Below, piece after piece: positions 22,285 to 39,895 of a stretch of DNA of 53,444 nucleotides. Both the position numbers and the translations under genes were made by a program. A model generated the notes under the pieces. That model had not been told where the DNA came from. It saw nothing but the letters and a program-made list of their open reading frames with translations, and did not search any database. The DNA lies in IMG/VR virus record IMGVR_UViG_3300007609_000025, positions 1 through 53,444 of that record, one strand, 5' to 3'. The DNA is from a virus. Its lineage: Duplodnaviria; Caudoviricetes. Within the stretch, counting starts at the first letter, position 1, and every line of letters begins with the position of its first letter.

Positions 22285-22304
22285 CTACTAAAGTAAGGTT
22301 AAAA

Positions 22305-22760: not shown

Positions 22761-22771
22761 GGAGACAATAA

Positions 22772-24061: not shown

Positions 24062-24070
24062 TTTGTGGCA

Positions 24071-24195
24071 GAGGGGGCCATAAATTAAGATTTCAATAGA
24101 AGGCGATTATTTTAACAAGCAGTAGTACCCCCTCACTAGCTGTACGTTAGAGCAAATAATCGCCTTCACTTTATATATAAAAACCAAATGAGGGG
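24071..24195 (+). promoter_or_regulatory. Structured intergenic RNA element with anti-SD loop
   Basis: Perfect 14-bp inverted repeat 24099-24112/24154-24167; loop CCCCCTCA is complementary to GAGGGGG (24071-77) and to the SD TGAGGGG (24189-95). Confidence 0.6.
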
Positions 24196-24203
24196 AATAC
24201 CTA

Positions 24204-24991: not shown

Positions 24992-27900
24992 TTGGCCAAT
25001 GCTAACTCAAATATTAACATTAATGTTAAAGCTAAAGGGGCTCAACGCTCCGCTAAAGACGTAAATGCAGTTGCAGACGCTCTTGGTAAACTAGGTGTTA
25101 GATCTGATAAAGCTTCTACTTCTACTGACGGCTTAAGTCGTTCTCAAACAAGACTAGGGCAGGCATCTGCAGCTAGTGGAAGACAGTTTAGCTCACAAGC
25201 AGCAGGACTTGGTGGTCTCGTTGGCGCTTATGCAGGCGCCGCGGCCACCATTTTTGCGTTACAGCAAGCATTTTCTGCCTTAAACAAAGCAGCCCAAGTA
25301 GAAAATATTGTTAGAGGTACACAGACTCTAGCTGCTGAGGTAGGTGAGAGCGGCAATAAGATAATAAAAAGCATACAAGAGATAACTGATAGCCAACTTA
25401 CTTTAGGAGAGGCAGCAGAAAAAGCAAACTTAGCCTTATCTACGGGATTTAGTACTAAGCAAATTGAAGGTCTAGCTTTTGTAGCGAATCAAGCTTCTAG
25501 AGCTCTTGGAAGAAACTTGTCTGACGCTTTTGAGCGTGTTGTTAGAGGTAGTGCTAAATTAGAACCAGAACTACTTGACGAATTAGGCATATTTACTAGA
25601 CTAGACCCAGCAGTACGTAAGTACGCTAAAGAAATTAATAAATCTGTAAATGAGCTTACAGAGTTTGAAAGACGTCAGGCGTTCGTTAATGAGGTTATCG
25701 AAGAAGGTACTCGTAAATTTAGTGCTATCGATACCTCAGCACCTTCTGCACAAAAAAGCCTAGAGAAGCTCAGCACAGCTTTAATAAATATAGGTACTCA
25801 AGTAGGAGGCTTATTAGCTAATACTTTAGCGCCTTTAGCTGATTTCTTTTCTAAAGATATAACAGGTGCTCTATCTATTTTTGGCATAGTAGCTGCTCAA
25901 GTTAGTAGAGTAGGATTTAGAGAGCTAAGCGGGGCTGCGCAGGGTGTTAATACTAGGCTCAGCTCTTTTAGAGCAAACTTATTAGAAAGCGGCTCACAAA
26001 GTGACGCCGCTCGATTTACTTTATCTGCTTTAAATAAAACTTTAATGGATCAAGAGTCTATAATAGCTAAAGGAACTAAAAAGCAAAAAGAAGTAGCTGC
26101 TTCTATATTTGCTATAGGCAAACAAGGCAAGTTATCTGCTTCAGATCTAGAAGATTTTAGTAGAGTAACTAAAGAACAAATAAAGCTACAGAAAGAGAGT
26201 CAAGCATTTGCAGCTAACGAAATAAAAGCACTGCAAGCCAAAGGTGTTACTACTACTGCTGCAAAAAATAAACTAGCAGACTATAAGGATGCTATAGTTG
26301 CATCAACAGCTGCCCAAGCTAAATTAAATAGGTCTTTAGCCTTATCTGAAACTGCTCTAGCTACCGTATCCTCTAGCGCTAGAAGAACTTCTGCTTCAAT
26401 AACTATATTAACAGGGGCAGTTAAAACTGCAACTGCTGTTATTAACGTATTCTCTAGAGTTATAAGTGGTGTATTTATATTTACAGCGCTACTACCTGTA
26501 ATAGAGAGTTTAATTGGGGTATTCCCTAAACTAGAAGCTCAAATTACTAACATTAAAAATGCTTTTTTAGATGCTAGAGACGCACAAAAAAGTTATGAAA
26601 CAGGTATTAGGAGCTTATCTAATACAGCGGGCATAAGCGGTATTTCTAAAGAATATGAGACACTAGGAAGAAGTGCTAGAGAGGCCGCTGCTACGCAAGA
26701 AGAGGTACTAACCTTTTTAACAAAGATTGGCAAAGTAGAACTTCCGGCTATAAGCTCTGTTATAGCAGGTATTAAAGGTGTTTCAGTTCAGGCAGTAGAC
26801 GCTAATAATGCGGTAGCTAATCTACAAGGGGGTTTAAGTTTATTAGCTATAGCTGGTGTTGGTGTCGCTGCTGTCGCACTTAAAACCTTTGCAGTGCCTA
26901 TGGGAGCTGTTATAGCAGGTGTAGCAGGTCTAGCACTAGGAGTAGAAGCTCTTATAGCTAAATTTACTAGCTACACTCCTGTAGTTGCTGGGTTTTTTGA
27001 GAAAGTACTATCTTTTGTAGGAGTAGGCGCTACAGCTCTAACTACTACAGAGGCTCAGATAGCCTCTGTAGAAGGCAAAATAGAAGAGTTAAAAAGTAGT
27101 CTTGCTGATGCTAAAACTTTAGATGAATATTTAGGTATACGTCAATTTATAGACTCTTTAGAATCTGCACTGCCTCTTATTGCAGACGGTAGTATCGCTA
27201 TAAGACAGTTTGCCGCTGAACTTTCTAAATCTACTGGACTTAATATAGAAGATATTTCCCGTAATTTAGTAGAAAGCAGTGATGGCGTACTGACTATCAA
27301 TAATATAGCCGTAGGCCTAAGAAATGCACAAGGGCAAATACAAAAGACAACAGGGGCTGCAAAAGATTTATTAGAAACCTCTATCGGTTTTAGTACTGTA
27401 TTTTTAAATGCTAGCTCTGAGCTTACTAATTTTAATGTTAGCTCTAGAGAGCTTATACAAACTGTAGAATCTTTAGCAAGTGCTGAGGTTAATCTTAGAG
27501 ATAAACTAAAAGGAGTTAGCTCAGAGTTAGCAGTTATTGCTAGAGAAGAGGAAGAAGCTGTAAGAGCTAGAGACGCGCTAATTAAGAGTATAGAAGGAAC
27601 TGACTATAGCTCAGTAGAGGCGCAAAGACTTATTAACCTAGATGATAGAACAAAAGAACTGAATCTTCAAAGAAGGCAGCTAGAAGCTACTAGAAGAGAG
27701 GTAGAGGCTCAGCTAAAAGTTGACGAAGATAGACTGGCTATATTAAAAAATATAGGCGATGAGCTTAACAAACAAGAAAAAACATATGAAAAAATACTTC
27801 AGTCTATATCAGCTGAAATAAAAGCCTTTGAAGATGTTAATCTTCAAGGTGTATTCGATATGGAGTCTTTAACTAGCGCAGAAACTTCTTTTGGTGTTGC

Positions 27901-30900
27901 AGCTAATAAAATAAAAAATCTTAGCTCTACTCTAAGTAAAGATTTAAATAACATAACCCAAGACTTTGAAAGAGTATTCGGTCCTGACTCTATATTTAAC
28001 TTGGAAGAGCCTTTTGATAAGGCTAATGAAAGTATAACTGAGTTTCTTGCTAGAATGCAGGGATCTATAAATATCACCCCTGAACTATCTGCTGAGTTAA
28101 GAAAAGCTGAAAATGCAAGCAATCAGCTGGATTCTAGTGCTAAAGGCGTGCTAGGTACTTTTATACTACAAATTAAAGCTTTAGAAGCTCTAAAGAAAGA
28201 AGTTGCTAGGACTGTACGTGACATAAACCTAGACGAATTAAGAACAGCTATAAATGCTGAGATCTCCATAATACAACAAGCACGTAGTAATAGGCAAACT
28301 ACAGCTTCTTTAGCTAAAGAGGAGAGAGACCTATCCTTACAAATATTAGACGCCAACTTACGTACTACAGAAGAAAAAACTAATCAACTAATTAATACTC
28401 TAAATACTAATAGAGAGCTACTAAACATACAAGAGAGTATGTTAGGCTCTCAATTAGAAATATCTAAAGCAAAAATAGAAGCATCAAAAATAGAGCTAGA
28501 TAATGCTAAAAGCCTGCTAGAGTTAGGTAATAGAGGCATACAAAACTCTAAGATAAATAAAGACTTAAAAGAGTTATTTGATATTGTTAATGACGTTGTA
28601 GGGGCTGGAATAGACGTTGCTACTGCAGAAAAAGAGTCAGAACAAGTAGCTATTGAGATAGCTAACTTAGATAAGTTAGCTGCTCTAGATAAGCAAAGAT
28701 TTGCGATAGAGCGAGAAGTAATCGCAGAACGTTCAGCACAGGCTGATCTTCAAAATAAAATGGAGCTCGCGCGTATAAAGATAGATTCCGATAGTAGAGT
28801 TAAAGCACTAGAAGAGCGTAAAAATCAAATAGCTGAAGATCGTCGTATTCTAGAGCTAAGAGATGAACTACAAAAAGAAGAAAGAAAAGCTGCTGATGAG
28901 GATAAAAAACTTCAATTAGAAACATTAAATAAACGAGTAGAAGAAGCTAATAGACTTATAAGTGGTATGAAAAATTTTGTTAGTGAGTATGGTATTGAGA
29001 ATGATGATTTTCTTAGTAGGTACTCTGCAGAGCTTAGAAACTTTATAACGCAGTTAGCAGGCCTTATAAATAGTATTGGCACCATAGGTAACTTAGGGTC
29101 GGGTCAAGCAGTGGTTGCTTCTCAAGGAGCTAGACCAGTAGGCCCAGATGACGGATTTAGAGGCTCAAACGGCTCAGTAACTAACAATTTTGAAAATGTT
29201 AGTATTGAAGGGCTAAGCCCCTCAGATAGTAGCAGCATAGTAGACGGAATATTAAAAACCATAAGACAAAGAGAGTCTAGTAATAGGTACAATGTTACTA
29301 ATTACGCATGGGGGGAAGGCTCTACTGCTAGTGGCGCGTATCAGTTTACTAGAGGCACATGGGCAAGAGAAGCTGCAAAAGCTGGAGTAGGTACTGAGTA
29401 TAGAGACGCTATGAGCGCCCCTGCATCTGTTCAAGATGCAGTGGCAGAATCATATGTTAGAGATATCTTAACAAGAGGAGGCGGACGACTTGAGTCTGTA
29501 CCTACTGAGTGGTATACAGGAAATCTTCAAGGAAACATGAGCGCTGAGGCGCTGAGAGTTAATAGAGGTTTAACTTCTGAACAATACAATACCGGCTGGA
29601 TGAGAGACTTTGAAAAGATTAACGGTAGTCTTACAGCTACAACAGCTAATCTCCAAGATGCTTCAGATTCTTTAAAACGAAACGCTCAAATACAACAAAA
29701 TACTCAAACGGCTTTAAGTAGCTTAGAAAATGATAGATTAAACGCTGCTGAATCTTCTTTGGATAGACAAATAGCTTTAGAAAAGCAACGAGGTAATGCT
29801 GCCGCATCGGCCTCCGAAGCTGCAGCCGCAGGACAAAGTGCTCAAATACAAAATGAGTCCCGACTACTAGACAAACGCGAAGAAGCTAACTCTGCGCAAA
29901 GACAAGCAGAGGAAGCTAACAATAAAAATCGTGAAAGAGCGGTACAGCTAGAAGAAAAACTGGCTAGAGTACGGTTAGCACAAGCTACTTTTGAAGGGCT
30001 TAGCAGGTTTGGTAATCTACTGCAGCGAGTAACAGCTGGAGTAGCGGAAGAGCGTCAAGCCCGTGCCCAAGAGTCTTATAATGAGTCTTTAGAGGCGCAT
30101 GAAGAAAAACTGGAAAGAGTTAAAGAAGCTCGTGATCGAGAGTCTGAGGCAGTTACTGCTTCTATGGATATATTACGTGATAGACGAGAAATAGAACGTA
30201 GCATGTTAGACTCAATAGCTGCAGGGATTGATGGGTACTCAGACTACTTTAAACTTCAAAAAGAATATCTAGATAATATAGATGAAACATCTAATAGTAC
30301 AGAGTCTCTAAAGTTAATTCAGCAAGACAGACTACTTGCTGAGCAAGAAGGGTATTTAGCACAAGTAAGATTAGAGTTTTCTGCTAATGCTCTAGCAGAG
30401 GCTAATTCAAAACTAGAGCGAGCACAAAATAGCGTTGTAAATGAACTAGGGTCTATGATAAGTAGTCTAGGAGATGCGGGACAAAAACTAGTTAGTTTTA
30501 CTACCTTTGTACAAGGCTTAGCTGCAGCTGCGTCTCAAGGAGTAAGTGGAGGCGGAATATTAGGTACTATAGGTCAGTTATTTGGTTTTGACTTTTCAAA
30601 TATATTTAAAAGTATTTTAGCTCCTTTAGACTTACTAACTAGTACTCTTACCGGTAGTTTTAAATCTTCTGCAGCCGCAGTGAGTAGTGTGGCTGAGGGA
30701 GCTGTTAAAGCTCAAGGTGCATTAAGTGGGGTAAGTAAGGTACTATCTGGGTTAGGTTCTATTGTAAGTACTGCTTTTGCAGGCGCTTCACTAGGTGCTA
30801 TGACAGGAGGTTCTACTGTAGAGGCCCAAATAGGAGGTGCTCTTGGTTCAGTAGTAGGCGCTAGTATAGCTGCTGCGGTATCGGGTACTGCTTTTGGCTC

Positions 30901-33900
30901 TGCTCTAGGTAGTTTTCTTGGGCCTATAGGCACAGTTCTTGGAGGGCTTTTAGGAGGCTGGATAGGCGGTTTGCTAGGTGGGGGTTCCAGTAAGTATACT
31001 ACTGCTGAATTTAACATAGCTACTGATAGGGTAAGCGCTGGAGGGGCTCAAGGAAATGCTTTAGAGCCTATTGCTCAATATGCTAAAAGTTTAAACACCT
31101 TATTAGAAGATATTATTGGAGTGAGTAATAGAGCTCGATCTTTCGATGTACTTTTACGTACTAGAGAAGGTGACATAAGGCAACAAGAATTATCGACTAC
31201 AATAAATGGGAGCCAAATTAGAAGGGGCGTTAACTTCAATGATGCTGAGAGCGTATCCAAAACAACCTTTGAGCTGTTATTAAAAGGATTTACTACTGCT
31301 GCCTTTGATGTTAGACAAGCTATTGGAAGACTTGATTTTTCTGATGATATTGAAAAGAACTTAGAAAAAATATCTTTTGCCGCCTCTTTTAGAGAAATTA
31401 TAAACAATATACAAGATCAAATAACATCAAGCTACATAACCCTAGATCAAGAGGTAGACAAAATTGCTGCTACTACAGCAGCTAATATAAATCAAGTAAC
31501 AAATGGATTAGTTGCTGATTTTCAAGATTTAATTACTAGAACAATAGATGTTTTTGGTGAGAACTCTTACCGAGTAGGTCAGTTAGAAAGTTACGGCTCT
31601 AGTCTTTTACTTAGTTATGCAGGATTAGCTGTTAGCGCTGGAGGTGCGGTATCTATAATAGAGCGTGAAGCTGAAGATATGAATAATCTTGCACTAGTAT
31701 TTGCAAGCATTGAGGGAGAGACTAGAGGGTTTAGAGACTCGCTAATACAGTTAGGTACTTCTGCTTCTGAAGCTGATCGTATACTAGAAACAGGTATAGC
31801 CTTAAAAATACAGAAAGTAGCTAAGGACTTTGAAGAGGCTATTGATAAAGCTGTTAACTTATCTAAAAATATAAATAATGAAGTATACGATAGTCTTGAG
31901 GAAATTTTTAAAGCTCAAAGTTTATTAGTTCAAGATGCTCGTTTAGTTCAGTCTACTGTGTCTGGCACTTTTGGTATTATAAGTAAGACAGAAAATTTAA
32001 TTTATAGACAACGCATGAGGTTGATAGCTGAATCTTCTGATGAGCAGCTAATAGCTATTAGAGCTCTTACTGCTGTAACTGCTGAATACTCTGATGCCGT
32101 CACCCAAGCCACAGCACAAGCAGAAATAGCTTCTAGAACCCTATTAGGATTATTTAATACCTCAGAGATACAAAAGTCAGCTAGACGTTCTGAGTCTAGA
32201 CTATCTTTCAACTTTGCTTCTGTAGGCTTAGCTTCAGGAGGCGTAGTGCCTGGAACTAATGCTCAGCAAAATAAAGATTCTGTTCCTGCAATGTTAATGC
32301 CAGGAGAGTTTGTTATAAACAAAAAATCTTCTGAAAAAATAGGATACGACACTCTATACTCTTTAAACTCTGGTAATTTTAATCAAATGGCTGCAGGAGG
32401 TAGGGTAGAAACAGGGCTAAGCGGCGGTGCGTTAACTACAACTGCTACTCCTTCAAACACAAGATCTAGTTTTGCTGCATATGAGTTTGACGGCACAGCA
32501 GCATTTATTTCTTTTGCAGAAGCTGCTAATATATTAACAGACGCTAATGAGGAGTTATATGACCAGTACTTAAATATCTTTAGATCTATAAACTCTAATC
32601 TAGTTCCTGCTCTAGAGTTTACTCAAGATAAACTAACTGAAGGTAATATACTATTAGCGCGTGCAGCTTTTGAGTACTCTACTGGGGTTAGAGATGCAGT
32701 AAGTGTTACTGACTCTCTTAATAAAATTATAGCAGAGACTAGAACTCAAGAAGTACTTCGTCAAGCAGGCCTTGTAGCCTCTATTGATGAGATAGGCAAC
32801 TTTGTAGACGCCTCAGACTCTTTCTTTTTATCTTTGCAATCTCCTAAAGACTCTTTGGTTGAGCAATCTGGCTTATATAAAGAACTGTACACAGCTACTA
32901 ATGAGCTAAATAAGCTATTAGCTCAAGGATCAATAACAACGGATCAGTACAATAGCTCTATTGACGCTTTAAATACTGCTTATACAGCTTCTATAGAGTT
33001 AGTTCGTGAATATAATGAGTTTTTTATAGATCTTAATGACAGTCTAGATGATACAGGAGCTTTAAGCAATGTAAGAGCATTAGTAGCTACCTATGTAAAT
33101 AGCATAGATAGAGTAAGCTATGCTGTACAAGACGGTATTATTGCTACTGAGGACGCATATAAAAAAGAAATTCAAGTAAATACGCTATACAATCAAAGAA
33201 GACTGGCTTTAGTACAAGACTCGACTGAGGAGCAGCTAAAAGTGCTTAGAGATGCTGCTACAACTGCAGAAGACTATGGCGGTGGAATAGGTACTATAGT
33301 AGACTTTACATACTCAGTAGGGGCGGCCACAGAGTTACTTACTAGACAGTTACAAGCTGCGAGTGAGAGTTTTGCTAGTTTTGAAACCTCTTTAGTTGAC
33401 TTTTACAACTCTACACTACAAGCATCTACAGGTTTTGGATCACGCCTAACAAGATCTGTAGAATCTATATTTTTAGAGGCAGGAATTATTTTTGAAGAGT
33501 CATTAAGCGAATTTTTTGGCTCTGTAGGCAACTTTGCTGTTAAAGCACAGCAAGGCTTAATAGGTTTGAATGACTTAGAAACAGCTTTAGGGCAGTTAAA
33601 CTATCAATTAACAGTTAGTGAGTCTATAAATATTGAAACATACAAAACAGGAGTTAGTATACTTCAAACTTCCTTTATTGACTTTGTTAGTACTTTCCAA
33701 GATATGAGAGAAGAGCTTGATAGTGCTAAAGACTCTATGGAATCTTTTAGGTCTAGCCTGTATGACTCGTTTAATTCAGTGGTTAGAGATATTACTAGAC
33801 TACTTGAAGGTATGGTGTCTACGTATAGAACTAACTTTGAAAACTTAAAAGGACTATTTAATTCAGCAGTATCAGATCAAGCCAGTGCTGAGGAAGAACT

Positions 33901-36900
33901 ATATAATACGCTATTTGATGCGCAGAAAGCTTTTGCCGCAGCAGGAGGCAACTTAAGCCAGCATGTAGATAGAATAAATGATATTGTACAAGGACTTGAC
34001 CCTCAATATACTGGATATGCAGGTTTAGACCAGTACTTAACTGACTTAAAATTAGATATAGAATCTGGTACAGCTGCTATAGGCAGTATAGACACTACTA
34101 CGCCTATATCTGAACTAAGAAACAGCCTAGAAGATCAACTACAAAGGCTTTCAGAACTGCAAGCACTACCTGACTCTGCTGATAAGTTTGTTAAGATAAG
34201 CAGAGCTCTTTCTACTATAACAGATTTAGAGTCACAAATTAGCGGTACTACAAATACTACAGATAGCTTAAAAGAAGCGGCATTGGCACTAGTTGGAGTA
34301 GAAAAAGAACTTAACTTAAACAACACTACTGAGGGTCTTAGAAATGTAGACCTTACTTTAACAGAGATACAAGAAGATCTACTAAAGCGTGCAGTGGATG
34401 CTCGTGATGCTTATAATGATGCAAACTCTGTATTAGACGGGTATAATGCTGCTTTAGCAGATAATACTGTTTATATTGACGGACTGGCTGATGCTACTTT
34501 AAATGTCAATCAAAAAATAGAGCTATTTACAGATAAACTAGCTAGTGTTAGTGATGAGTTTGCTAATGTACAAGCAGCCATAGATAGTGTTACTACTGCA
34601 AACTTATCTGACGCGCTAAGTAACATTGTATTTAGTCAAGATGCGTATAATATAGCAGTTGAGCCTTTTTCTAACTCTGCTGAAGTATTAGAGCAGCTAA
34701 CTGCTTCTATCGCTGAGTACCAAAACATAGTAGACGCTAAAACTGCTTATGAAGAGTTGTATGGTGCTATTGATATTGCTAGTAACACTCTACCTTTAGA
34801 AGAGTTTCAAGAGTTAAATACAGAGCTTCAATTCTTAGAGAATAACTTGACGTCAATATTACAGGCTATGGATCCAACTGCTATGGGCCTAGATAGCCTT
34901 GAGACAGTATTTAAAACTTTCGTAACTGATGCAATAGCGCTACTAGAAACGCCTATACAACTAGACATAGTTGAGCCTAGTTTAAACACTGATTTACAGC
35001 AATATACTCTAAACACTACTAGTACAGAAAGTAACCAAGTTGCGTTCGGCACTAGTGCCACTAATAGCCTGTTGCAGTCTATTCTTACCGATGGACTAGG
35101 TGTGCGCTCCCCAGGTTACTTATATTATAACAATCTTTACTTAGAAGATATTAGAAAAATACTGTCAGAGCTGTTAGTAGTATCAGGAGGAGTTGTTCCT
35201 GCACTAAATGATATTGCAGCGCCTGTAGCAGGAGAGTCGTCTGTCTCTTCTGGTACCTCTACTGTGTATGCAGGGCCAAATGTTTCTAATTTAAGCGGGC
35301 TAACAGGTCAGTTGTTTTCTGTGACCGAGCCTATTGCTAAGCCTGCTGACTATTTTTATATAGTAGTACCTCAGATTATTAGATTTGACCAGCTTATTGA
35401 TATAGTTAAGGCTGAGTTAGACATATATGATTTTGCAACTATAGTTAAAGTATCACATACTATAGATACTTGGATTGATATAGTAAAAAGAACTACTAAC
35501 TTTGATGAGTGGTTAGATGTAGTTAAACGTAATACTACCTTTAACGAATGGCTAAACATAGTAAAGATAGACACAAAATTTACTGATTGGGTAACTATTG
35601 TAAAACAGGACCATGACTATAGAACTTGGTTTAATCAGCCGACACCATTAGATACTAACTACTTAAAATGGTTTATACCTAAGCCAGAAAATACTAGCTG
35701 GGGTATGTGGTTCTCTGCGCCTACTTTAACTGAAACTGGTTTTGCAGACTGGTTTACATGGCCTCCTACTACTAAGTGGGAAACTAGCGGGTATGATTGG
35801 TTTGATATCTCAAGAAGAGAGATTAGGTATATAGACTTTTTTGATGTTAGAGAAAAGATAGATATAAATACTTTTGTAGCTTCTATACCAGTAACTGCTG
35901 AGACATTCTTTAATATTAGCACTATGACTACCACTTTTGACGATTGGTTTTATATATCACCTAAGGCGGGTATTGGTTTTTATGACTTCTTTACAGGCCT
36001 AGTAACAGTAGACACCAAAGCTTCTGATTGGTTTGTACTAGACTCTCCTATAGACTTGGTACCTTCTGATCTGTACACTGTAAGCTCTCCTGTTGAGTTA
36101 TCAGCTTATTCACTGTTTAAGCCTAAAGTAGAAAATATTGAAGCATCTGCTCTTTACTCAATACAAAGCCCATTATTACTGAACCCTAACGAAGTACTAG
36201 CTATAAATGAGCTGGCTAAGCTACCTCTTAGTTATGTTGATATATTTGAGCTAGGAACTACTAGACTAGAAATTACAGATATGTTTGAAAACTACTCTGT
36301 TAACGGCGGTTTTGACTTTGTTAGAGCTAGAATAGACAGTAGCGATATATTTGATATAGAAGCGTTTAGACAGAGCGGTTTTGAAAGTAAGCTAAAAATA
36401 GATCCTTCAGATTTATTTACTGAAGTCGATAACAATTGGTGGGTACCTGAAAAAACTGTTGGTATAACTCCAGATACCTTTTTTAGCCCTTTAACAGGGG
36501 TAGCTCCTTACGACTTTTTCTTTGTAGAACCTACCTTATTAGCTACTAATTTTTATGACTGGTTTGATGCTGCTGATAAAATAGATATTTCTAATGTATT
36601 TGAGCTATTTCAGCCAATACCTTTAGATTTACGAAATGCTTTTGACCTTTCTAATACTAGAGAGCCATTAGCTCCTAGCCAAGTATTTACTTTATCTCCT
36701 AATCCTACCGTTGTTCAAGCATCTCAAGTATTCAGTATAGGGGCCAAATATAGACTACAAGGTAATGAGATACTTGAATTTATACCTTATGAAATATTAG
36801 CTAGTGAATTTATAGATTTTTCTTATTTAAGAAGCAATCCTTATCAAGTCACTGCTATAGATTTATTTACTTTACTAGGTACTGTTCCTGTAAATCTGTT

Positions 36901-39895
36901 TAATTACTTAGAAGTAATAGGTAGAGCTACTTTTGCTGCTAAAGATGTTATAAATGTTGCAAAGAGCACTTTTTATGGGCAAGACTTAATATCTATTCAA
37001 CCAGTAAACCTAACTTCTGATAGCTTATTTACTGTTAATACTCCTACAGCGCTACCAGGAGCCTCTTTCTTTTCTATAAGTGCGCCTACTGCTCTGCCTG
37101 CTGCAGCATATATAGGGGTTGATGAGAATGAAAAACTTGAGTACAGGTTCGATCAAATACTTAACATTATTGGAGATCCTGTACCTATAGCACTAAATGA
37201 TGTTTTTTCAAACTTTAGTTATAGAGAGGGATTTGCTTGGACTAAGTACGCATTAGCAGTAGAAGACGTTGTAGATTTAACTGTATTAACTACTAGCGGA
37301 TTAGTAGATAAACCAATTCTTTCTGTTAGCGATCTTATCGGTAACTATGCTTTTGGTGAATTAAAGTTAGAAGATAAAATAGATATTGACTATGATAGTC
37401 TATTTAACCCTATAGTGCAAAAAAATTCTGACTTCTACACATGGTTTATCAAAGATAAGTTATCCACTACGTTTGCAGATTGGTTCTATATGAATGAAGC
37501 TACTAAACTTGATCTAGGGGACTTGGTTAATAATACTGTACCTTTAGATTATAGAGAAGTATTTGATTGGAACAATACAACTAAGATTAAACCTGCTGAG
37601 TGGGAGCAAGTATTCTCCTTTGACGCTACTAGAAAAATAACTGTAAGAGTATATGATATAATGGTTATCGAACCTGCAAGTTATGATGCAGATACCCTTA
37701 TAAACCTTAATAAAAGTACTGTTGATGTGTCTCAATTAATTACTATAGGCCGTAAAATGAACCGCACTGCAGGTTCACTTATTGACATAACACAGCCTCT
37801 TAGAGTAAGTGCAAGTAACTTATTAGAAATAGTCTCTCCGCTACTAGTTGACCTAAATGAAGGAGTAACATTTGAAAAAGCTGTAGTAGACGGTTCTGAG
37901 ATATTTACTCCTGTAGCCTCTGAGCTGTCTGGTATTAACTTTTTTAACCCAACTCAGTTTTCTATTACAGGAGCTGCGTTCTTTACCCCTATAGCAACTG
38001 CTATAGACGCTAACGATTTGTTTAATATAAGTAAAAAAGTACCTATAGATGTTACGGCTACATTTGAATCTGATTTTATGAAGATGGTAGATGCTATAAA
38101 TGTCTTTAAAACCGAAGCAATACCTTACTTAAAAACAATAAATGATAGTTTAAATGATCAACCAAACGACAATGCTTTAGCATTATATGACCAAATTTGG
38201 GATTACTATCAGAACACATTTTTAAAGAGCTACTATGACCAATGGACTCCTAAAATAGCTAAGCTTGCTGATATAGCCAAATCAGTATCTTCCAGTGTGG
38301 ACCTTCAAAAAGAAATTAGGACCACTCTAAATGCTATATGGAATTGGCTTCAGGTATTTTTAGAGCCTAAAATAAAAAGTATAGACAGTTCTTTAGATAG
38401 TATTGACAATAAGTTAACTGACACAAATAACTTTTTAGAAAGTATTGACAATAAGGTAACTGACCTAAATAACTTTTTAGAAAGTATTGACAATAAGTTA
38501 ACTGATACAAATAACTTTTTAGAGACTATAGACAGTTCTTTAGATAGTATGGACGATAAGTTAACTGACACAAATAACTTTTTAGAGACCATAGACAGTT
38601 CTTTAGACAGTATGGACGATAAGTTAACTGACACAAATGGCTTTTTAGATACCATAGACAGTTCTTTAGATAGTATGGACGATAAGTTAACTGACGCAAA
38701 TGGCTTTTTAGATAATATAAAAGGGGTACTAGATTCTATAGAGCTTCATATGTTTAACATCGAAGGTAATACTGCTTGGTTAGACGATATTGAAAAAGTA
38801 TTACGTGAGTCCATATTCTTAAAAGCTCTTGGCGACTTACAAGATATAAATAAAGTTAGGTATACTTATCCAGGAGCTACTACTACTTATGTGCCTGGAT
38901 ACAAGACAGGAGGCATGGTAGACGGCCCCGGTACTGGAACTAGTGACTCTATACCTGCTAGACTTTCAAAAGGCGAATTTGTATTAACTGCTAATACTGT
39001 TTCTAAGCTTGGACCAGAATTTTTAAATACATTAAATACTACTGGAAGGCTAGACTCTGCCCTATCCACTTTCGGGATACGCGGAGATACGCAGATGGCC
39101 CATATTAATGATACAGAAGCTAATTTACTAAAAAGTATTGGAGGCTCAGGCACGACTAATTCTGCTACAGGACTAAAACAGTACTTTTTTGATGGATATA
39201 GAAATATCTTAGGAGAAACAGCTGCTTCTGCTTATTCTTCAGGGTTTAATGCTATTGCTAACACTAATATAGGGTTTGAAGCTTACAGACCAGAAAGAGT
39301 AAGTTCTAACTCTAACTGGGATACAGCGAACTATGCACCTAATAGTTTTGCTAAACAGGCTATTGTTTATGCAGCACAATATATTGCAGCTTCTAGAAAC
39401 GGAAAAAACTGGGGCGTTGGAGATGCAGCCTCAGCAGTAGGAGATCTATGGTTTGAGTATGACAGACCTAATAGAGTTCAGTTTAATAGGGGTAATAGAT
39501 TTAATAACTCATCTCCTTCTACTAGTAATTGGGACTCTATAATAAATAGGGTAAAAGGCCTATATCCTGCTTTTGCTAACGGAGGTATTGTTTCAGGACC
39601 TGGAAATGGTACTAGCGACTCTATTTTGGCTATGCTATCTGACGGAGAGTATATTGTTAGAAATTCTTCTGTTGACAATGTGGGGGTAGATACGTTAGAC
39701 TATATTAATAATAATGGGGCTCTACCTACAGGCGACACTAACATTGAAGTCAACATAATAAACAAAGGTCAGCCAGTAGAAACTGAGACGCAACCTGAAG
39801 TTAAAATAGTAAACGGCAAAATGGTGGTAGATGTAGTACTTAAAGACTTAAGAACTAATGGCCCTATAAAACGTAGCATAAAGAAGATTAAATAA
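24992..39895 (+). CDS. Giant tape measure protein (4967 aa) with lysozyme-like domain
   Basis: Follows the chaperones; T5 pb2-like N-terminus (ASRALGRNLSDAFERVVRGSAKLEPELLDELGI); coiled coils, hydrophobic/Gly-zipper segments, GG.V.GPG...SDSI.A.LS.GE motifs; TTG start. Confidence 0.9.
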   Translation: MANANSNININVKAKGAQRSAKDVNAVADALGKLGVRSDKASTSTDGLSRSQTRLGQASAASGRQFSSQAAGLGGLVGAYAGAAATIFALQQAFSALNKAAQVENIVRGTQTLAAEVGESGNKIIKSIQEITDSQLTLGEAAEKANLALSTGFSTKQIEGLAFVANQASRALGRNLSDAFERVVRGSAKLEPELLDELGIFTRLDPAVRKYAKEINKSVNELTEFERRQAFVNEVIEEGTRKFSAIDTSAPSAQKSLEKLSTALINIGTQVGGLLANTLAPLADFFSKDITGALSIFGIVAAQVSRVGFRELSGAAQGVNTRLSSFRANLLESGSQSDAARFTLSALNKTLMDQESIIAKGTKKQKEVAASIFAIGKQGKLSASDLEDFSRVTKEQIKLQKESQAFAANEIKALQAKGVTTTAAKNKLADYKDAIVASTAAQAKLNRSLALSETALATVSSSARRTSASITILTGAVKTATAVINVFSRVISGVFIFTALLPVIESLIGVFPKLEAQITNIKNAFLDARDAQKSYETGIRSLSNTAGISGISKEYETLGRSAREAAATQEEVLTFLTKIGKVELPAISSVIAGIKGVSVQAVDANNAVANLQGGLSLLAIAGVGVAAVALKTFAVPMGAVIAGVAGLALGVEALIAKFTSYTPVVAGFFEKVLSFVGVGATALTTTEAQIASVEGKIEELKSSLADAKTLDEYLGIRQFIDSLESALPLIADGSIAIRQFAAELSKSTGLNIEDISRNLVESSDGVLTINNIAVGLRNAQGQIQKTTGAAKDLLETSIGFSTVFLNASSELTNFNVSSRELIQTVESLASAEVNLRDKLKGVSSELAVIAREEEEAVRARDALIKSIEGTDYSSVEAQRLINLDDRTKELNLQRRQLEATRREVEAQLKVDEDRLAILKNIGDELNKQEKTYEKILQSISAEIKAFEDVNLQGVFDMESLTSAETSFGVAANKIKNLSSTLSKDLNNITQDFERVFGPDSIFNLEEPFDKANESITEFLARMQGSINITPELSAELRKAENASNQLDSSAKGVLGTFILQIKALEALKKEVARTVRDINLDELRTAINAEISIIQQARSNRQTTASLAKEERDLSLQILDANLRTTEEKTNQLINTLNTNRELLNIQESMLGSQLEISKAKIEASKIELDNAKSLLELGNRGIQNSKINKDLKELFDIVNDVVGAGIDVATAEKESEQVAIEIANLDKLAALDKQRFAIEREVIAERSAQADLQNKMELARIKIDSDSRVKALEERKNQIAEDRRILELRDELQKEERKAADEDKKLQLETLNKRVEEANRLISGMKNFVSEYGIENDDFLSRYSAELRNFITQLAGLINSIGTIGNLGSGQAVVASQGARPVGPDDGFRGSNGSVTNNFENVSIEGLSPSDSSSIVDGILKTIRQRESSNRYNVTNYAWGEGSTASGAYQFTRGTWAREAAKAGVGTEYRDAMSAPASVQDAVAESYVRDILTRGGGRLESVPTEWYTGNLQGNMSAEALRVNRGLTSEQYNTGWMRDFEKINGSLTATTANLQDASDSLKRNAQIQQNTQTALSSLENDRLNAAESSLDRQIALEKQRGNAAASASEAAAAGQSAQIQNESRLLDKREEANSAQRQAEEANNKNRERAVQLEEKLARVRLAQATFEGLSRFGNLLQRVTAGVAEERQARAQESYNESLEAHEEKLERVKEARDRESEAVTASMDILRDRREIERSMLDSIAAGIDGYSDYFKLQKEYLDNIDETSNSTESLKLIQQDRLLAEQEGYLAQVRLEFSANALAEANSKLERAQNSVVNELGSMISSLGDAGQKLVSFTTFVQGLAAAASQGVSGGGILGTIGQLFGFDFSNIFKSILAPLDLLTSTLTGSFKSSAAAVSSVAEGAVKAQGALSGVSKVLSGLGSIVSTAFAGASLGAMTGGSTVEAQIGGALGSVVGASIAAAVSGTAFGSALGSFLGPIGTVLGGLLGGWIGGLLGGGSSKYTTAEFNIATDRVSAGGAQGNALEPIAQYAKSLNTLLEDIIGVSNRARSFDVLLRTREGDIRQQELSTTINGSQIRRGVNFNDAESVSKTTFELLLKGFTTAAFDVRQAIGRLDFSDDIEKNLEKISFAASFREIINNIQDQITSSYITLDQEVDKIAATTAANINQVTNGLVADFQDLITRTIDVFGENSYRVGQLESYGSSLLLSYAGLAVSAGGAVSIIEREAEDMNNLALVFASIEGETRGFRDSLIQLGTSASEADRILETGIALKIQKVAKDFEEAIDKAVNLSKNINNEVYDSLEEIFKAQSLLVQDARLVQSTVSGTFGIISKTENLIYRQRMRLIAESSDEQLIAIRALTAVTAEYSDAVTQATAQAEIASRTLLGLFNTSEIQKSARRSESRLSFNFASVGLASGGVVPGTNAQQNKDSVPAMLMPGEFVINKKSSEKIGYDTLYSLNSGNFNQMAAGGRVETGLSGGALTTTATPSNTRSSFAAYEFDGTAAFISFAEAANILTDANEELYDQYLNIFRSINSNLVPALEFTQDKLTEGNILLARAAFEYSTGVRDAVSVTDSLNKIIAETRTQEVLRQAGLVASIDEIGNFVDASDSFFLSLQSPKDSLVEQSGLYKELYTATNELNKLLAQGSITTDQYNSSIDALNTAYTASIELVREYNEFFIDLNDSLDDTGALSNVRALVATYVNSIDRVSYAVQDGIIATEDAYKKEIQVNTLYNQRRLALVQDSTEEQLKVLRDAATTAEDYGGGIGTIVDFTYSVGAATELLTRQLQAASESFASFETSLVDFYNSTLQASTGFGSRLTRSVESIFLEAGIIFEESLSEFFGSVGNFAVKAQQGLIGLNDLETALGQLNYQLTVSESINIETYKTGVSILQTSFIDFVSTFQDMREELDSAKDSMESFRSSLYDSFNSVVRDITRLLEGMVSTYRTNFENLKGLFNSAVSDQASAEEELYNTLFDAQKAFAAAGGNLSQHVDRINDIVQGLDPQYTGYAGLDQYLTDLKLDIESGTAAIGSIDTTTPISELRNSLEDQLQRLSELQALPDSADKFVKISRALSTITDLESQISGTTNTTDSLKEAALALVGVEKELNLNNTTEGLRNVDLTLTEIQEDLLKRAVDARDAYNDANSVLDGYNAALADNTVYIDGLADATLNVNQKIELFTDKLASVSDEFANVQAAIDSVTTANLSDALSNIVFSQDAYNIAVEPFSNSAEVLEQLTASIAEYQNIVDAKTAYEELYGAIDIASNTLPLEEFQELNTELQFLENNLTSILQAMDPTAMGLDSLETVFKTFVTDAIALLETPIQLDIVEPSLNTDLQQYTLNTTSTESNQVAFGTSATNSLLQSILTDGLGVRSPGYLYYNNLYLEDIRKILSELLVVSGGVVPALNDIAAPVAGESSVSSGTSTVYAGPNVSNLSGLTGQLFSVTEPIAKPADYFYIVVPQIIRFDQLIDIVKAELDIYDFATIVKVSHTIDTWIDIVKRTTNFDEWLDVVKRNTTFNEWLNIVKIDTKFTDWVTIVKQDHDYRTWFNQPTPLDTNYLKWFIPKPENTSWGMWFSAPTLTETGFADWFTWPPTTKWETSGYDWFDISRREIRYIDFFDVREKIDINTFVASIPVTAETFFNISTMTTTFDDWFYISPKAGIGFYDFFTGLVTVDTKASDWFVLDSPIDLVPSDLYTVSSPVELSAYSLFKPKVENIEASALYSIQSPLLLNPNEVLAINELAKLPLSYVDIFELGTTRLEITDMFENYSVNGGFDFVRARIDSSDIFDIEAFRQSGFESKLKIDPSDLFTEVDNNWWVPEKTVGITPDTFFSPLTGVAPYDFFFVEPTLLATNFYDWFDAADKIDISNVFELFQPIPLDLRNAFDLSNTREPLAPSQVFTLSPNPTVVQASQVFSIGAKYRLQGNEILEFIPYEILASEFIDFSYLRSNPYQVTAIDLFTLLGTVPVNLFNYLEVIGRATFAAKDVINVAKSTFYGQDLISIQPVNLTSDSLFTVNTPTALPGASFFSISAPTALPAAAYIGVDENEKLEYRFDQILNIIGDPVPIALNDVFSNFSYREGFAWTKYALAVEDVVDLTVLTTSGLVDKPILSVSDLIGNYAFGELKLEDKIDIDYDSLFNPIVQKNSDFYTWFIKDKLSTTFADWFYMNEATKLDLGDLVNNTVPLDYREVFDWNNTTKIKPAEWEQVFSFDATRKITVRVYDIMVIEPASYDADTLINLNKSTVDVSQLITIGRKMNRTAGSLIDITQPLRVSASNLLEIVSPLLVDLNEGVTFEKAVVDGSEIFTPVASELSGINFFNPTQFSITGAAFFTPIATAIDANDLFNISKKVPIDVTATFESDFMKMVDAINVFKTEAIPYLKTINDSLNDQPNDNALALYDQIWDYYQNTFLKSYYDQWTPKIAKLADIAKSVSSSVDLQKEIRTTLNAIWNWLQVFLEPKIKSIDSSLDSIDNKLTDTNNFLESIDNKVTDLNNFLESIDNKLTDTNNFLETIDSSLDSMDDKLTDTNNFLETIDSSLDSMDDKLTDTNGFLDTIDSSLDSMDDKLTDANGFLDNIKGVLDSIELHMFNIEGNTAWLDDIEKVLRESIFLKALGDLQDINKVRYTYPGATTTYVPGYKTGGMVDGPGTGTSDSIPARLSKGEFVLTANTVSKLGPEFLNTLNTTGRLDSALSTFGIRGDTQMAHINDTEANLLKSIGGSGTTNSATGLKQYFFDGYRNILGETAASAYSSGFNAIANTNIGFEAYRPERVSSNSNWDTANYAPNSFAKQAIVYAAQYIAASRNGKNWGVGDAASAVGDLWFEYDRPNRVQFNRGNRFNNSSPSTSNWDSIINRVKGLYPAFANGGIVSGPGNGTSDSILAMLSDGEYIVRNSSVDNVGVDTLDYINNNGALPTGDTNIEVNIINKGQPVETETQPEVKIVNGKMVVDVVLKDLRTNGPIKRSIKKIK
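38381..38716 (+). repeat. Intragenic tandem repeats of 42 and 63 nt in the TMP
   Basis: Six K(L/V)TD units: (IDSSLDS)(I/M)D(N/D)KLTDTNNFLE; DNA copies are nearly identical. Confidence 0.92.

What the first reader, a model, noticed from the sequence alone, without database searches (positions are those of the whole stretch)
24992..39895. Giant 4967-aa tape measure protein
Seen: an uninterrupted 14.9-kb ORF, about four times the length of T5 pb2. Known: tail length scales at roughly 0.15 nm per TMP residue, which would give about 0.7 micrometre, comparable with the longest known siphovirus tails. Inference: either an extremely long tail, or only part of the protein measures length and the rest is ejected cargo.
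Basis: partly seen in the sequence, partly recalled or inferred. Interest (0 to 1): 0.7.

Follow-up and report, generated by a model that had tools for sequence, protein, structure and literature searches.

The report
Giant tail ruler of marine phage
This is a real, intact 4,967-residue tail "ruler" gene of an uncultured T5-like phage, which predicts a tail about four times as long as that of phage T5 and contains a long block of aromatic repeats found in no other protein family.

Summary
The 14.9-kb ORF (24992-39895, +) is real and is a tape measure protein (TMP). Its first ~250 residues are homologous to the TMP of T5-like phage DT57C. It follows a tail chaperone with a conserved -1 slippery site and lies in a T5-like tail module. 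It is not a chimera: six collinear homologues of 4,933-5,015 aa and others of about 4,430-4,720 aa come from independent assemblies.

About 60 related loci keep the same tube, chaperone and tip genes, but their TMPs run from 1,087 to 4,985 aa. All share only the two ends.

Most of the protein is proline-poor and helical, with no Cys and almost no His. Segment lengths are kept even at about 30% identity, which fits a ruler and predicts a tail of about 0.5-0.75 µm.

Non-ruler parts:
- a swappable cell-wall hydrolase slot;
- a small alpha/beta domain;
- three copies of a module that lambda gpH carries once, in its cleaved C-terminal piece;
- a ~950-aa aromatic repeat block (period ~13.5 aa) with no predicted fold.

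No enzyme cargo beyond the hydrolase was found. Giant TMPs are known (P23-45, 5,002 aa), and this scan has met others on other DNA.

The parts
22772..24061 (+). Major tail (tube) protein, T5 pb6-like
   Evidence: phrog_3575 major tail protein, E 1e-54. tblastn gives about 30% identity over 96-98% of its length to tube proteins of T5-like phages. It is 79-90% identical in the giant-TMP relatives and 47-58% in the short-TMP relatives.
24204..24635 (+). Tail assembly chaperone G
   Evidence: phrog_313 tail assembly chaperone, E 5.5e-12. Conserved upstream of the TMP in the related loci.
24626..24632 (+). -1 slippery heptamer A_AAA_AAC, directly before the TAA stop of G
   Evidence: Read from the sequence. 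AAAAAAC followed by TAA is visible in 27 of 28 sampled related loci although the flanks have diverged.
24632..24991 (+). T extension of the chaperone (-1 frame), ending at TGA 24989-24991
   Evidence: The frame is open from the slippery site to the TGA. tblastn finds it abutting G in the related loci.
24992..39895 (+). Tape measure protein, 4967 aa, TTG start
   Evidence: phrog_3779 TMP, E 2e-40. Collinear homologues.
25049..25921 (+). N-terminal cap (residues ~20-310), shared with all relatives and with T5-type pb2
   Evidence: DT57C TMP residues 143-363 align to residues 20-247 at 34% identity, E 2e-28. It is 52-61% identical in most short-TMP relatives (36-49% in the more distant ones). This is the densest run of invariant columns.
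26426..26968 (+). Hydrophobic, membrane-helix-like segments (residues 479-514 and 610-659)
   Evidence: Kyte-Doolittle 19-residue windows reach 2.2.
27089..29071 (+). Coiled-coil ruler segment I (residues ~700-1360)
   Evidence: Charged residues 22-43%, Pro 0-2%. Hydrophobic autocorrelation peaks at lags 7 and 14. Length 710-760 aa in relatives at 21-30% identity (77% in the closest one).
29129..29611 (+). Cell-wall hydrolase slot (residues 1380-1540), here a transglycosylase/lysozyme-like domain
   Evidence: PF06737 E 8e-4, below its cut-off. C-type lysozymes align across the catalytic Glu region at E 0.1. The same slot holds PF00959 in P0006 and P0008 and PF18013 in P0005. The slot is almost empty (36-84 aa) in the 4,434-4,466-aa proteins and in the 3,832-aa P0014.
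29639..30541 (+). Coiled-coil ruler segment II (residues 1550-1850)
   Evidence: Exactly 300 aa in all 7 proteins of the ~5,000-aa group; five of them are only 27-33% identical to this one. Heptad lag 7.
30824..30991 (+). Glycine-zipper hydrophobic stretch (residues 1945-2000), 56 uncharged residues
   Evidence: Gly is 27% in residues 1901-2000.
30992..32191 (+). Folded alpha/beta domain (residues ~2001-2145) followed by helices (to ~2400)
   Evidence: AlphaFold2 model mbc2fe586c852: pLDDT 80-89 over model residues 11-140 (76 for 141-150), with five strands and helices. Length 400-401 aa in the ~5,000-aa group. No significant family match: Pfam none, PHROGs one match with no stretch passing on its own (phrog_18362, E 0.0076).
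32207..32413 (+). Copy 1 of the lambda gpHC-like module (GG..DSVPAMLMPGEFV..)
   Evidence: Lambda gpH residues 731-786 align to residues 2406-2474, E 0.003. phrog_35029 E 1.6e-12. Nearly invariant in the family.
32429..35281 (+). Conserved helical core (residues 2480-3430), specific to this family
   Evidence: A search of 1.84 billion representative proteins gave 8 hits, all in proteins of 2,892-4,967 aa, none of stand-alone size. By my count from the helix list, 82% helix over residues 2508-3188, with helices up to 103 aa. It is 60-70% identical where the flanks are about 30%.
35339..38191 (+). Aromatic repeat block (residues ~3450-4400), period ~13.5 aa
   Evidence: Aromatics 12-20% in most 100-aa windows, Pro 3-10%. 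Spectral power is 25.2 at 13.5 aa against a shuffle maximum of 9.2; the signal is present in 9 of 9 family members. AlphaFold2 gives mean pLDDT 31.9 and no fold. No Pfam or PHROG family.
38392..38712 (+). Tandem 42-nt and 63-nt repeats (14- and 21-aa units) within a coiled coil (residues ~4400-4620)
   Evidence: TRF: 42 nt x3.4 and 63 nt x3.8. Hydrophobic lags 7, 14, 21 and 28.
38891..39061 (+). Copy 2 of the gpHC-like module
   Evidence: phrog_6090, phrog_5448 and phrog_971 match residues 4620-4694. Weak alignment to lambda gpH 733-767.
39560..39895 (+). Copy 3 of the module plus the C-terminal cap
   Evidence: phrog_3547 TMP, E 5e-30, at residues 4853-4916. Found in 18 of 21 shorter-TMP relatives compared, at 29-45% identity.
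39895..42063 (+). Two tail-tip genes directly downstream (123 aa and 598 aa)
   Evidence: phrog_18 minor tail protein, E 6e-27, for the 598-aa ORF. Both are conserved downstream of the TMP in relatives.

Best explanation
The ORF encodes the tail tape measure protein of an uncultured phage with a T5-like tail module, read as one 4,967-residue chain. The pb2-like N-terminal cap and the C-terminal cap mark the two ends of the tail tube, and tube protein polymerises around everything between them. The whole chain is therefore housed in the lumen. Most of it (about 3,700 residues of proline-poor helix and coiled coil) sets the tail length, which predicts a tail of roughly 0.5-0.75 µm, or about 125-185 tube rings of 4 nm. 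Embedded in the ruler are parts that act after ejection: membrane-type helices and a glycine zipper for envelope insertion, and a swappable cell-wall hydrolase. Three lambda-gpHC-like modules may be docking or processing sites. A ~950-residue aromatic repeat block has an unknown conformation and role. Shown here: identity, integrity, architecture, family and length conservation. Inferred: tail length, ejection and processing.
For: - **Homology.** phrog_3779 TMP, E 2e-40. DT57C (T5-like) TMP residues 143-363 align to residues 20-247, E 2e-28.
- **Context.** The order is terminator, T5-like tube protein, chaperone G, -1 T extension, this ORF, tail-tip genes. 56 of 64 related loci have the tube gene upstream; the other 8 are cut there. 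The slippery AAAAAAC+TAA is seen in 27 of 28 sampled loci.
- **Integrity.** 17 homologues besides the window's own protein were found. Six are collinear at 4,933-5,015 aa.
- **Ruler character.** Pro is 0-3% in nearly every 100-aa window up to residue 3400, with heptad lags. Residues 2508-3188 are 82% helix in the model, counted from its helix list. There are heptad-multiple tandem repeats. The protein has 0 Cys, 0.1% His and no HExxH or Walker A motif.
- **Length kept at low identity.** Residues 1550-1850 are exactly 300 aa in 7 of 7 proteins; residues 2000-2400 are 400-401 aa.
- **One chassis, many lengths.** 30 complete TMPs in related loci measure 1,087-4,985 aa and share only the caps and the module.
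- **Not a gene fusion.** None of 83 HSPs in 28 shorter-TMP loci lies outside the TMP ORF. The core has no stand-alone form among 1.84 billion representatives.
- **Scale.** T5 has a 160-nm tube of 40 rings (PMC10038345, passage) for about 1,227 aa.
Against: - No particle has been seen, so the link between length and tail is extrapolated from T5 and lambda.
- About 1,250 residues are not ruler-like. The aromatic block is Pro-rich and has no confident fold (pLDDT 31.9, 14 sequences), so its rise per residue is unknown.
- The hydrolase domain and the alpha/beta domain (pLDDT 80-89) are globular and would have to be stored unfolded or in a wider space.
- The internal gpHC-like module at residues 2406-2474 resembles the place where lambda gpH is processed (PMC12617516, passages). 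It could mark a cleavage site or a former C-terminus.
- The lambda similarity is weak (E 0.003 in a one-to-one comparison).
- The hydrolase assignment in this window is below Pfam's cut-off (20.4 against 27 bits).
- Only 2,231 of 4,967 residues were modelled. Helicity elsewhere rests on composition and periodicity.
Confidence: 0.65

Rival explanations
1. Composite protein. Only one part measures the tail, for example residues 1 to about 2400, ending at the internal gpHC-like module, or only the helical segments. The family-specific core and the aromatic block are delivered cargo or a post-ejection conduit, stored compactly or cut off. The tail would then be about 0.3-0.4 µm.
For: - There is an internal copy of the module that lambda gpH has once, in its cleaved C-terminal piece.
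- Short relatives carry that module only near their C-terminus, so residues 1-2480 look like a complete TMP.
- The core of residues 2480-3430 is more conserved (60-70%) than the flanking coiled coils (about 30%), as expected of a part with a function of its own.
- The aromatic block is non-helical in the model.
- There is a precedent: P23-45 gp96 carries an active RNA polymerase inside a 5,002-aa TMP (PMC10770324, abstract and passages).
Against: - Both conserved caps lie at the extreme ends, so cutting before assembly would separate them.
- The core was found only in 8 proteins of 2,892-4,967 aa, none of stand-alone size, among 1.84 billion representatives, or next to shorter TMPs.
- No catalytic family or motif was found, and the protein has 0 Cys and 0.1% His.
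- The core is predicted as long helices, like a ruler.
- Three to six chains of about 2,500 extra residues still need lumen volume (inference).
Confidence: 0.22
2. Assembly chimera or sequencing artefact that joins separate genes into one open frame.
For: The source assembly is short-read. Logan unitigs of the probable source run break several times inside the repeat-rich part at 34.9-38.7 kb.
Against: - Six collinear homologues of 4,933-5,015 aa at 42-82% identity, and more of 4,420-4,718 aa, come from ENA, JGI, NCBI and Logan assemblies.
- Depth is even at 11-16 across 22000-41999 in the source run, and a run from another study holds near-identical contigs.
- Synteny is the same on both sides.
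Confidence: 0.01
3. A giant virion protein that has borrowed a TMP N-terminus but does not act as a ruler, for example a fibre or an injected scaffold. The real ruler would be encoded elsewhere.
For: 2,000 residues have no homologue outside the family.
Against: - No other TMP candidate lies between the chaperone and the tip genes.
- The G/GT frameshift sits directly upstream.
- The C-terminal cap is shared with TMPs of 1,452-3,908 aa in the same position.
Confidence: 0.03

Closest known systems
Tape measure protein pb2 of phage T5 and its relative DT57C (Demerecviridae)
   Same: The N-terminal cap is homologous (DT57C residues 143-363 to residues 20-247, 34% identity, E 2e-28). The tube protein is T5-like. 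The morphogenesis gene order is the same, including an HNH/nicking endonuclease between terminase and portal. Both have membrane-type segments and a wall-degrading activity in the TMP, and the C-terminal piece docks in the tip (PMC10038345, passages).
   Different: This protein is 4.05 times as long (4,967 against 1,227 aa). Beyond the cap, BLAST found no significant similarity (next-best E 0.09). The hydrolase sits mid-protein in a swappable slot. The helical core, the aromatic block and the three gpHC-like modules have no counterpart in pb2.
Thermus phage P23-45 gp96 and its P74-26 homologue: 5,002-aa TMP, tail near 1 µm
   Same: Nearly the same size. Both are siphovirus TMPs with transmembrane and wall-degrading parts plus a non-ruler insertion (PMC10770324, abstract and passages; PMC10034513, abstract).
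   Different: No RNA polymerase here: a single DxDxD lies in the aromatic block, and there is no family hit. Residues 1581-4580 match none of the 50,697 phage records. This phage has low G+C and related proteins carry ocean-survey names. gp96 was not compared directly.
Phage lambda gpH, matured to gpH* plus gpHC
   Same: The module GG..(DS.PA)..GEFV, seen three times here, aligns to gpH residues 731-786, inside the C-terminal piece that is cut off and whose end binds the hub protein (PMC12617516, passages). A hydrophobic glycine-rich stretch lies upstream, and there is a G/GT frameshift.
   Different: Lambda has one copy where this protein has three, one of them mid-protein. The similarity is weak (E 0.003). 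Cleavage here is untested.
TMPs with periodic Trp/Phe 'markers' (Belcaid et al. 2011, PMC3271669)
   Same: Regularly spaced aromatic residues in tandem repeats of a TMP. That paper proposes them as anchors or marks (passages).
   Different: The period there is 11 aa (or 11-11-18), in helical repeats of Gram-positive phages. Here the period is 13.0-14.3 aa, the block is Pro-rich with no predicted helix, it is about 950 aa long, and it occurs only in this family.
Mycobacteriophage and other TMPs with embedded peptidoglycan hydrolase motifs (recalled; also mentioned in PMC12617516)
   Same: A muralytic domain inside the ruler.
   Different: Here three unrelated hydrolase families, or none, occupy one slot in otherwise collinear proteins.

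Membership tests
Tail tape measure protein (long-tailed phages) | The gene lies between the tail chaperone pair G/GT (programmed -1 frameshift) and the distal tail or tip genes. | tested here: met
   Chaperone at 24204-24635, slippery A_AAA_AAC at 24626-24632 and a -1 frame open to 24991. Tip genes follow from 39895. The same order is seen in related loci. The slippery site is present in 27 of 28 sampled loci.
Tail tape measure protein (long-tailed phages) | Sequence homology to an experimentally studied TMP. | tested here: met
   DT57C/T5-type pb2, E 2e-28 over 240 columns. phrog_3779, E 2e-40.
Tail tape measure protein (long-tailed phages) | Mostly alpha-helical or coiled-coil chain. | tested here: inconclusive
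   Met for residues ~1-3400 and 4400-4620 by composition and periodicity, and by the model for residues 1990-3189 (71% helix by my count from its helix list). Not met for residues 3450-4400 (about 12% helix at pLDDT ~30). Only 2,231 of 4,967 residues were modelled.
Tail tape measure protein (long-tailed phages) | A C-terminal part that docks in the tail tip. | tested here: inconclusive
   The C-terminal cap is found in 18 of 21 shorter-TMP relatives compared, all in the same genomic place. Similarity to the lambda gpHC region is weak (E 0.003). Binding was not tested.
Tail tape measure protein (long-tailed phages) | Protein length determines tail length. | not testable with these tools
   No virion images and no genetics. 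Only segment-length conservation was measured.
P23-45 gp96-type TMP fused to a virion RNA polymerase | Two-barrel RNA polymerase domain with a conserved DxDxD metal site in the N-terminal part. | tested here: not met
   The only DxDxD is DIDYD at residue 4131, in the aromatic block. No polymerase family in Pfam or PHROGs. The N-terminus is pb2-like.
Lytic transglycosylase / lysozyme-like domain (PF06737 and relatives) | Match above the family cut-off, with the catalytic Glu. | tested here: inconclusive
   20.4 bits against a cut-off of 27. C-type lysozymes align over the Glu-Ser region at E 0.1. Support comes from position: relatives hold PF00959 or PF18013 above their cut-offs in the same slot.
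Demerecviridae (T5-like phages) | Shared core genes at family-level similarity. | tested here: inconclusive
   The tube protein is only about 30% identical to T5-like phages. The gene order of the head-tail module is alike. There is no DNA match to any phage record. The record is about 50% complete.

The most novel reading that the evidence does not exclude
The ~950-residue aromatic block is a second kind of ruler tape. Its marks (one Trp/Phe pair every ~13.5 residues) would be commensurate with the 4-nm rings of the T5-type tube: two marks per ring if helical (27 aa x 0.15 nm), or one per ring if extended (13.5 aa x about 0.3 nm). It would register the tape against the tube wall during assembly. 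After ejection, the same amphipathic Trp/Phe units would line an envelope-spanning conduit. If the block is extended, it alone adds about 300 nm and the tail approaches 0.9 µm, rivalling the longest known. The lineage, with TMPs of 1,087 to about 5,000 aa on one tube chassis, would then be a natural series for working out how rulers are read.
Probability: 0.12. Interest if true: 0.75.

Novelty: new variant of a known kind. Interest (0 to 1): 0.45.

Why it matters
Tail length is one of the few virion dimensions set by a single protein. It has been unclear how far the rule of 0.13-0.15 nm per residue holds for giant TMPs, and what the non-helical inserts contribute.

This lineage keeps the same tube, chaperone and tip genes. 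Its ruler comes in discrete sizes of about 1.1, 1.5-1.8, 3.0, 3.9, 4.4 and 5.0 thousand residues. Within the giant clade, whole blocks are present or absent: the hydrolase slot, and about 330 residues of aromatic repeats.

That makes the question directly testable once particles are imaged or tails are assembled from cloned genes. It also predicts that phages with tails of 0.5-0.75 µm exist in waters where related proteins were sampled.

On its own, though, a giant TMP is not new.

Tried and rejected
- **DNA search.** Megablast of 13784-24992 and of the ORF against 50,697 phage records gave no match. tblastn of residues 1581-4580 gave no match.
- **Related loci.** The search for related loci with the single protein matched 20 stretches, none confirmed. 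The alignment A1 was needed.
- **Aromatic block structure.** AlphaFold2 on 14 sequences gave pLDDT 31.9. The model is too poor for a fold search, so none was run on it.
- **Fold searches on the model of residues 1990-3189.** Foldseek against the PDB gave a best E of 1.5e-3 with TM 0.09. The VIA-align wide search gave Z up to 8.8. All matches are generic long helices or hairpins, below the level that is meaningful for helical models.
- **Family scans of fragments.** The aromatic block and residues 4690-4860 matched no family. The core gave only a weak TMP profile (phrog_167, E 3e-4). The coiled coil at residues 4400-4620 gave only sub-threshold coiled-coil families.
- **Fusion with a neighbouring gene: rejected.** None of 83 HSPs lies outside the TMP ORFs in 28 loci, and the core has no stand-alone form.
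- **Stop-codon read-through.** The idea was that read-through of the TGA between the T extension and the TMP, which share a frame, makes a G-T-TMP fusion. Rejected: the stop is TGA in 15, TAA in 31 and TAG in 9 of 55 loci.
- **RNA polymerase or metallopeptidase cargo: rejected.** Motif scan.
- **Read laying.** Only contigs were available, so neither starts, ends nor true depth could be read. Runs X3 and X5 hold only short or divergent pieces, and no habitat is claimed from them.
- **Earlier notes.** Look-ups by place and by sequence returned nothing.
- **Not used.** Complex prediction, the protein-atlas search and the two remaining homologous-protein searches.
- **Rows dropped.** Of 64 loci, 32 have ORFs open at a contig end. 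L004 (410 aa) and L021 (342 aa) are interrupted although the match continues past the break. These 34 were left out of the length list of 30.
Full report
**Observation.** The window is a whole IMG/VR virus record of 53,444 bases, linear and estimated 50% complete. The ORF listing finds a single ORF, 24992..39895 on the + strand, 4,967 aa with a TTG start. The translation has no internal stop. G+C is 35-39% across the gene, so stop codons are frequent and an open frame of this length cannot be a chance event.

**Context.** A PHROG scan of 37 neighbouring ORFs gives a head-tail module in this order:
- large terminase (13784-15052);
- HNH endonuclease;
- portal;
- a protease-major head protein ORF;
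- adaptors;
- tail terminator (22275-22760);
- major tail protein (22772-24061);
- tail chaperone (24204-24635);
- the giant ORF;
- minor tail proteins;
- a J-like central fibre protein (43004-45481);
- a 1,097-aa ORF, then spanins.

The tube protein is about 30% identical over 96-98% of its length to the tube proteins of T5-like phages. 908 phage records matched, all below 60% identity. The gene order is that of DT57C/T5, including an endonuclease between terminase and portal.

The chaperone ORF ends ...C AAA AAA CTA A. The heptamer A_AAA_AAC (24626-24632) sits directly before its TAA stop. The -1 frame then stays open to the TGA at 24989-24991, one codon before the TTG start of the giant ORF. 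This is the G/GT arrangement that precedes tape measure genes; that general rule is recalled from Xu et al. 2004. In 28 sampled related loci, the printed sequences show AAAAAAC followed by TAA in 27, although the flanks have diverged. The script's own regex tally was 24+2+1+1, because it caught an earlier A-run in L049 and a different heptamer in L018.

**Identity.** phrog_3779 (tail length tape measure protein) matches residues 53-452 at E 2e-40. Further TMP profiles match the C-terminal 350 residues. The TMP of the T5 relative DT57C (1,227 aa) aligns over its residues 143-363 to residues 20-247 here, at 34% identity and E 2e-28. Pfam gives only two weak hits.

**Not a chimera.**
- A word-indexed search of 5.8 billion clusters returned 18 proteins among 1,307 scored candidates, one of them the window's own.
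- BLAST maps show that P0003 (5,008 aa, 82%), P0005 (4,988), P0006 (4,985), P0007 (4,965), P0008 (4,933) and P0009 (5,015) are collinear with the query, apart from divergent stretches that include residues ~1360-1550.
- P0010-P0013 (4,434-4,466 aa) are collinear at 30-38% identity. P0004, P0014 and P0015 look partial. P0016-P0019 (3,651-4,852 aa) share essentially only the ends.
- Sources are ENA, JGI, NCBI and Logan. Cluster members carry ocean-survey names and lie on contigs of up to 174 kb.
- Contigs of the probable source run tile 22000-41999 at depth 11-16. A run from another study holds short contigs with 0-2 differences inside the gene. These are contigs, not reads, and the source run is not independent.

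**One chassis, many ruler lengths.** With the alignment A1, the search for related loci returned 64 loci.
- Thirty carry a complete TMP ORF. The lengths are 1087 (x2), 1452, 1472, 1550, 1644, 1683, 1688, 1700, 1705, 1707 (x2), 1722, 1769, 1785, 1787 (x2), 1815, 1822, 1823, 3038 (x2), 3039, 3899, 3908 (x3), 4420, 4585 and 4985 aa.
- Thirty-two loci are open at a contig end, and two (L004, L021) are interrupted. These 34 were dropped from the list.
- The shorter proteins share with the query the N-terminal cap (residues ~38-310, 52-61% identical in most, 36-49% in the more distant ones). All but three of the 21 compared also share one or two copies of a short module and the C-terminal cap (residues ~4856-4964, 29-45%).
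- The neighbours are the same everywhere. 56 of 64 loci have the tube gene upstream, and the other 8 are cut there. The tube protein is 79-90% identical in the giant clade and 47-58% in most others.
- No piece of the giant's middle lies outside a TMP ORF in 28 loci with shorter TMPs (0 of 83 HSPs).

**Anatomy** (residue numbers):
- 20-310: cap.
- 479-514 and 610-659: strongly hydrophobic helices.
- 700-1360 and 1550-1850: charged, Pro-free, heptad-periodic coiled coil.
- 1380-1540: wall-hydrolase slot. Here it is transglycosylase-like (PF06737, 20.4 bits against a cut-off of 27). C-type lysozymes align over the catalytic Glu region at E 0.1. P0006 and P0008 hold GH24 lysozyme (PF00959) and P0005 holds tail lysozyme PF18013 at the same place. 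The 4,434-4,466-aa proteins and P0014 have only 36-84 residues there.
- 1945-2000: an uncharged glycine zipper.
- 2001-2145: a confidently modelled alpha/beta domain (pLDDT 80-89), followed by helices to ~2400.
- 2406-2474, 4634-4690 and 4857-4910: three copies of the module GG..DS.PA.L..GEFV.
- 2480-3430: a family-specific core.
- 3450-4400: an aromatic repeat block.
- 4400-4620: a coiled coil with tandem repeats of 42 and 63 nt, that is 14- and 21-aa units.
- 4857-4967: the C-terminal cap.

**The module.** I tested this here. Lambda gpH residues 731-786 align to residues 2406-2474 (E 0.003), and more weakly to the other two copies. According to the passages read in PMC12617516:
- the end of gpHC binds the hub protein gpI;
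- gpH* forms the trans-envelope channel.

The module therefore lies in the part of lambda's ruler that stays at the tip. Whether it is a docking site, a processing site or both is not known, here or in lambda.

**The core.** phmmer of residues 2480-3430 against 1.84 billion representative proteins found 8 proteins, of 2,892-4,967 aa, with the core at residues 2324-2480 in six of them and earlier in the two apparently truncated ones (P0004, P0015). There is no stand-alone form and no distant relative. The AlphaFold2 model of residues 1990-3189 has mean pLDDT 57.6. By my count from its helix list it is 71% helix overall and 82% over residues 2508-3188, with single helices of up to 103 residues. 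Fold searches gave only generic helical matches.

**The aromatic block.**
- Aromatic residues make up 12-20% of most 100-aa windows and Pro 3-10%.
- Aromatic autocorrelation peaks at lags 13, 14, 26 and 27.
- In 400-residue windows the spectral power is 25.2 at period 13.5. In 200 shuffles of one window the mean was 5.1 and the maximum 9.2.
- All 9 family members tested show the signal: period 13.0-14.3, power 11.2-30.2.
- The nine TMPs of 1,087-1,823 aa and lambda gpH stay at or below 8.0. Six other giants range from 6.6 to 10.7, except P0018, which has its own 10.1-aa period.
- The clearest units read roughly T-T-x-F-x-[DE]-W-[FL]-x-I-V-K-x.
- AlphaFold2 with 14 sequences gives mean pLDDT 31.9 and almost no regular structure until residue ~4360.
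- No Pfam or PHROG family matches.
- Periodic Trp/Phe marks are known in TMPs, but with an 11-aa period in helical repeats (PMC3271669, passages).

**Ruler or cargo?**

Evidence for a ruler:
- Segment lengths are held while the sequence drifts. Residues 1550-1850 are exactly 300 aa in all 7 proteins of the ~5,000-aa group; identity to this protein is 27-33% in five of them and 84% in P0003.
- Residues 2000-2400 are 400-401 aa. Residues 600-1360 are 710-760 aa at 27-30% identity.
- Total length in that group is 4,933-5,015 aa, even though three unrelated hydrolase domains occupy the slot.
- The protein has 0 Cys and 0.1% His, and no HExxH or Walker A motif. Its one DxDxD lies in the aromatic block.
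- Because the two caps are at the two ends, the chain between them must be enclosed as the tube grows (inference from the established assembly pathway).

Evidence for cargo, or at least for non-ruler parts:
- The hydrolase, the alpha/beta domain and the unstructured aromatic block together make about 1,250 residues.
- There is an internal gpHC-like module.
- The core is markedly better conserved than the coiled coils (60-70% against about 30%).
- P23-45 gp96, a 5,002-residue TMP, has residues 327-1124 as an active virion RNA polymerase (PMC10770324, abstract and passages).

**Size estimate (inference).** T5 has a 160-nm tube of 40 rings (PMC10038345, passage) for a TMP of about 1,227 aa (DT57C). 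That is 0.13 nm per residue and 4 nm per ring.
- The whole protein would give about 650 nm, or about 745 nm at 0.15 nm per residue.
- Without the 1,250 non-helical residues the estimate is about 480-560 nm.
- If the aromatic block were extended, it could reach about 900 nm.
- A lower bound comes from lumen volume. This rests on recalled figures of about 133 cubic angstroms per residue and a lumen about 4 nm wide. It gives roughly 0.2 µm for three chains and 0.4 µm for six.

**Novelty.** Giant TMPs are in print: P23-45 and P74-26, the latter with a tail of nearly 1 µm (PMC10034513, abstract). This scan has already reported several on other DNA. None resembles this one by sequence.

What is new here:
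- a T5-related lineage with a ~5,000-aa ruler;
- a ~950-aa helical core and a ~950-aa aromatic repeat block found nowhere else;
- a hydrolase slot filled by three different families;
- a natural series of ruler lengths on one conserved tail chassis.

I searched the paper library four times and saw no description of this family. No search was aimed specifically at marine T5-like phages, so I do not claim that it is unpublished.

Noticed in passing
window 16789-19467 (+): A single 892-aa ORF matches head maturation protease at residues 11-219 (phrog_80, E 2e-41) and major head protein at residues 715-880 (phrog_267). It looks like a protease-scaffold-capsid fusion; in DT57C/T5 these are separate genes.
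   Followed up: no
window 24989-24994 and related loci: The chaperone's -1 extension and the TMP are in the same reading frame, separated by one stop, and the TMP starts at a TTG directly after it. In 55 loci the start is TTG in 35 and lies 0-1 codon after the stop in 47. The stop varies (TGA 15, TAA 31, TAG 9). This suggests coupled, weak initiation rather than read-through.
   Followed up: partly
window 4376-4933, 10107-10889 and 10891-11502 (+): Three ORFs among the tail-fibre-like genes match 2OG-Fe(II) oxygenase, 'ferrochelatase' and 'endonuclease V' PHROGs (phrog_274, 2954, 61).
   Followed up: no
window 8019-9065, 9065-10141 and 11502-13772 (+): Three proteins share the unknown-function family phrog_19111 (E 1e-27 to 4e-32). 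The third is fused behind a phrog_4474 / tail-fibre-assembly-like part.
   Followed up: no
P0016-P0019; loci L015, L046, L055-L058: Other lineages with the same caps and the same tail chassis have TMPs of 3,038-4,852 aa whose middles are unrelated to this one. P0018 has its own aromatic period of 10.1 aa and a PilN-like hit (PF05137). Ruler expansion seems to have happened several times independently.
   Followed up: partly
window residues 4695-4735 of the TMP (about 39074-39196): A nearly invariant motif, GDT..AHIN..EA.LLK..GGSG..N..TGLKQFFF, lies between module copies 2 and 3. The fragment has no Pfam or PHROG family.
   Followed up: partly
window 15128-15529 (+): An HNH endonuclease lies between the large terminase and the portal, at the place where DT57C/T5 has the nicking endonuclease sciA.
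   Followed up: no
window 45496-48789 and 1839-3647 (+): Large ORFs of 1,097 aa and 602 aa in the tail-fibre region have no PHROG match. The 1,097-aa one is conserved after the J-like gene in relatives at 28-51% identity.
   Followed up: no
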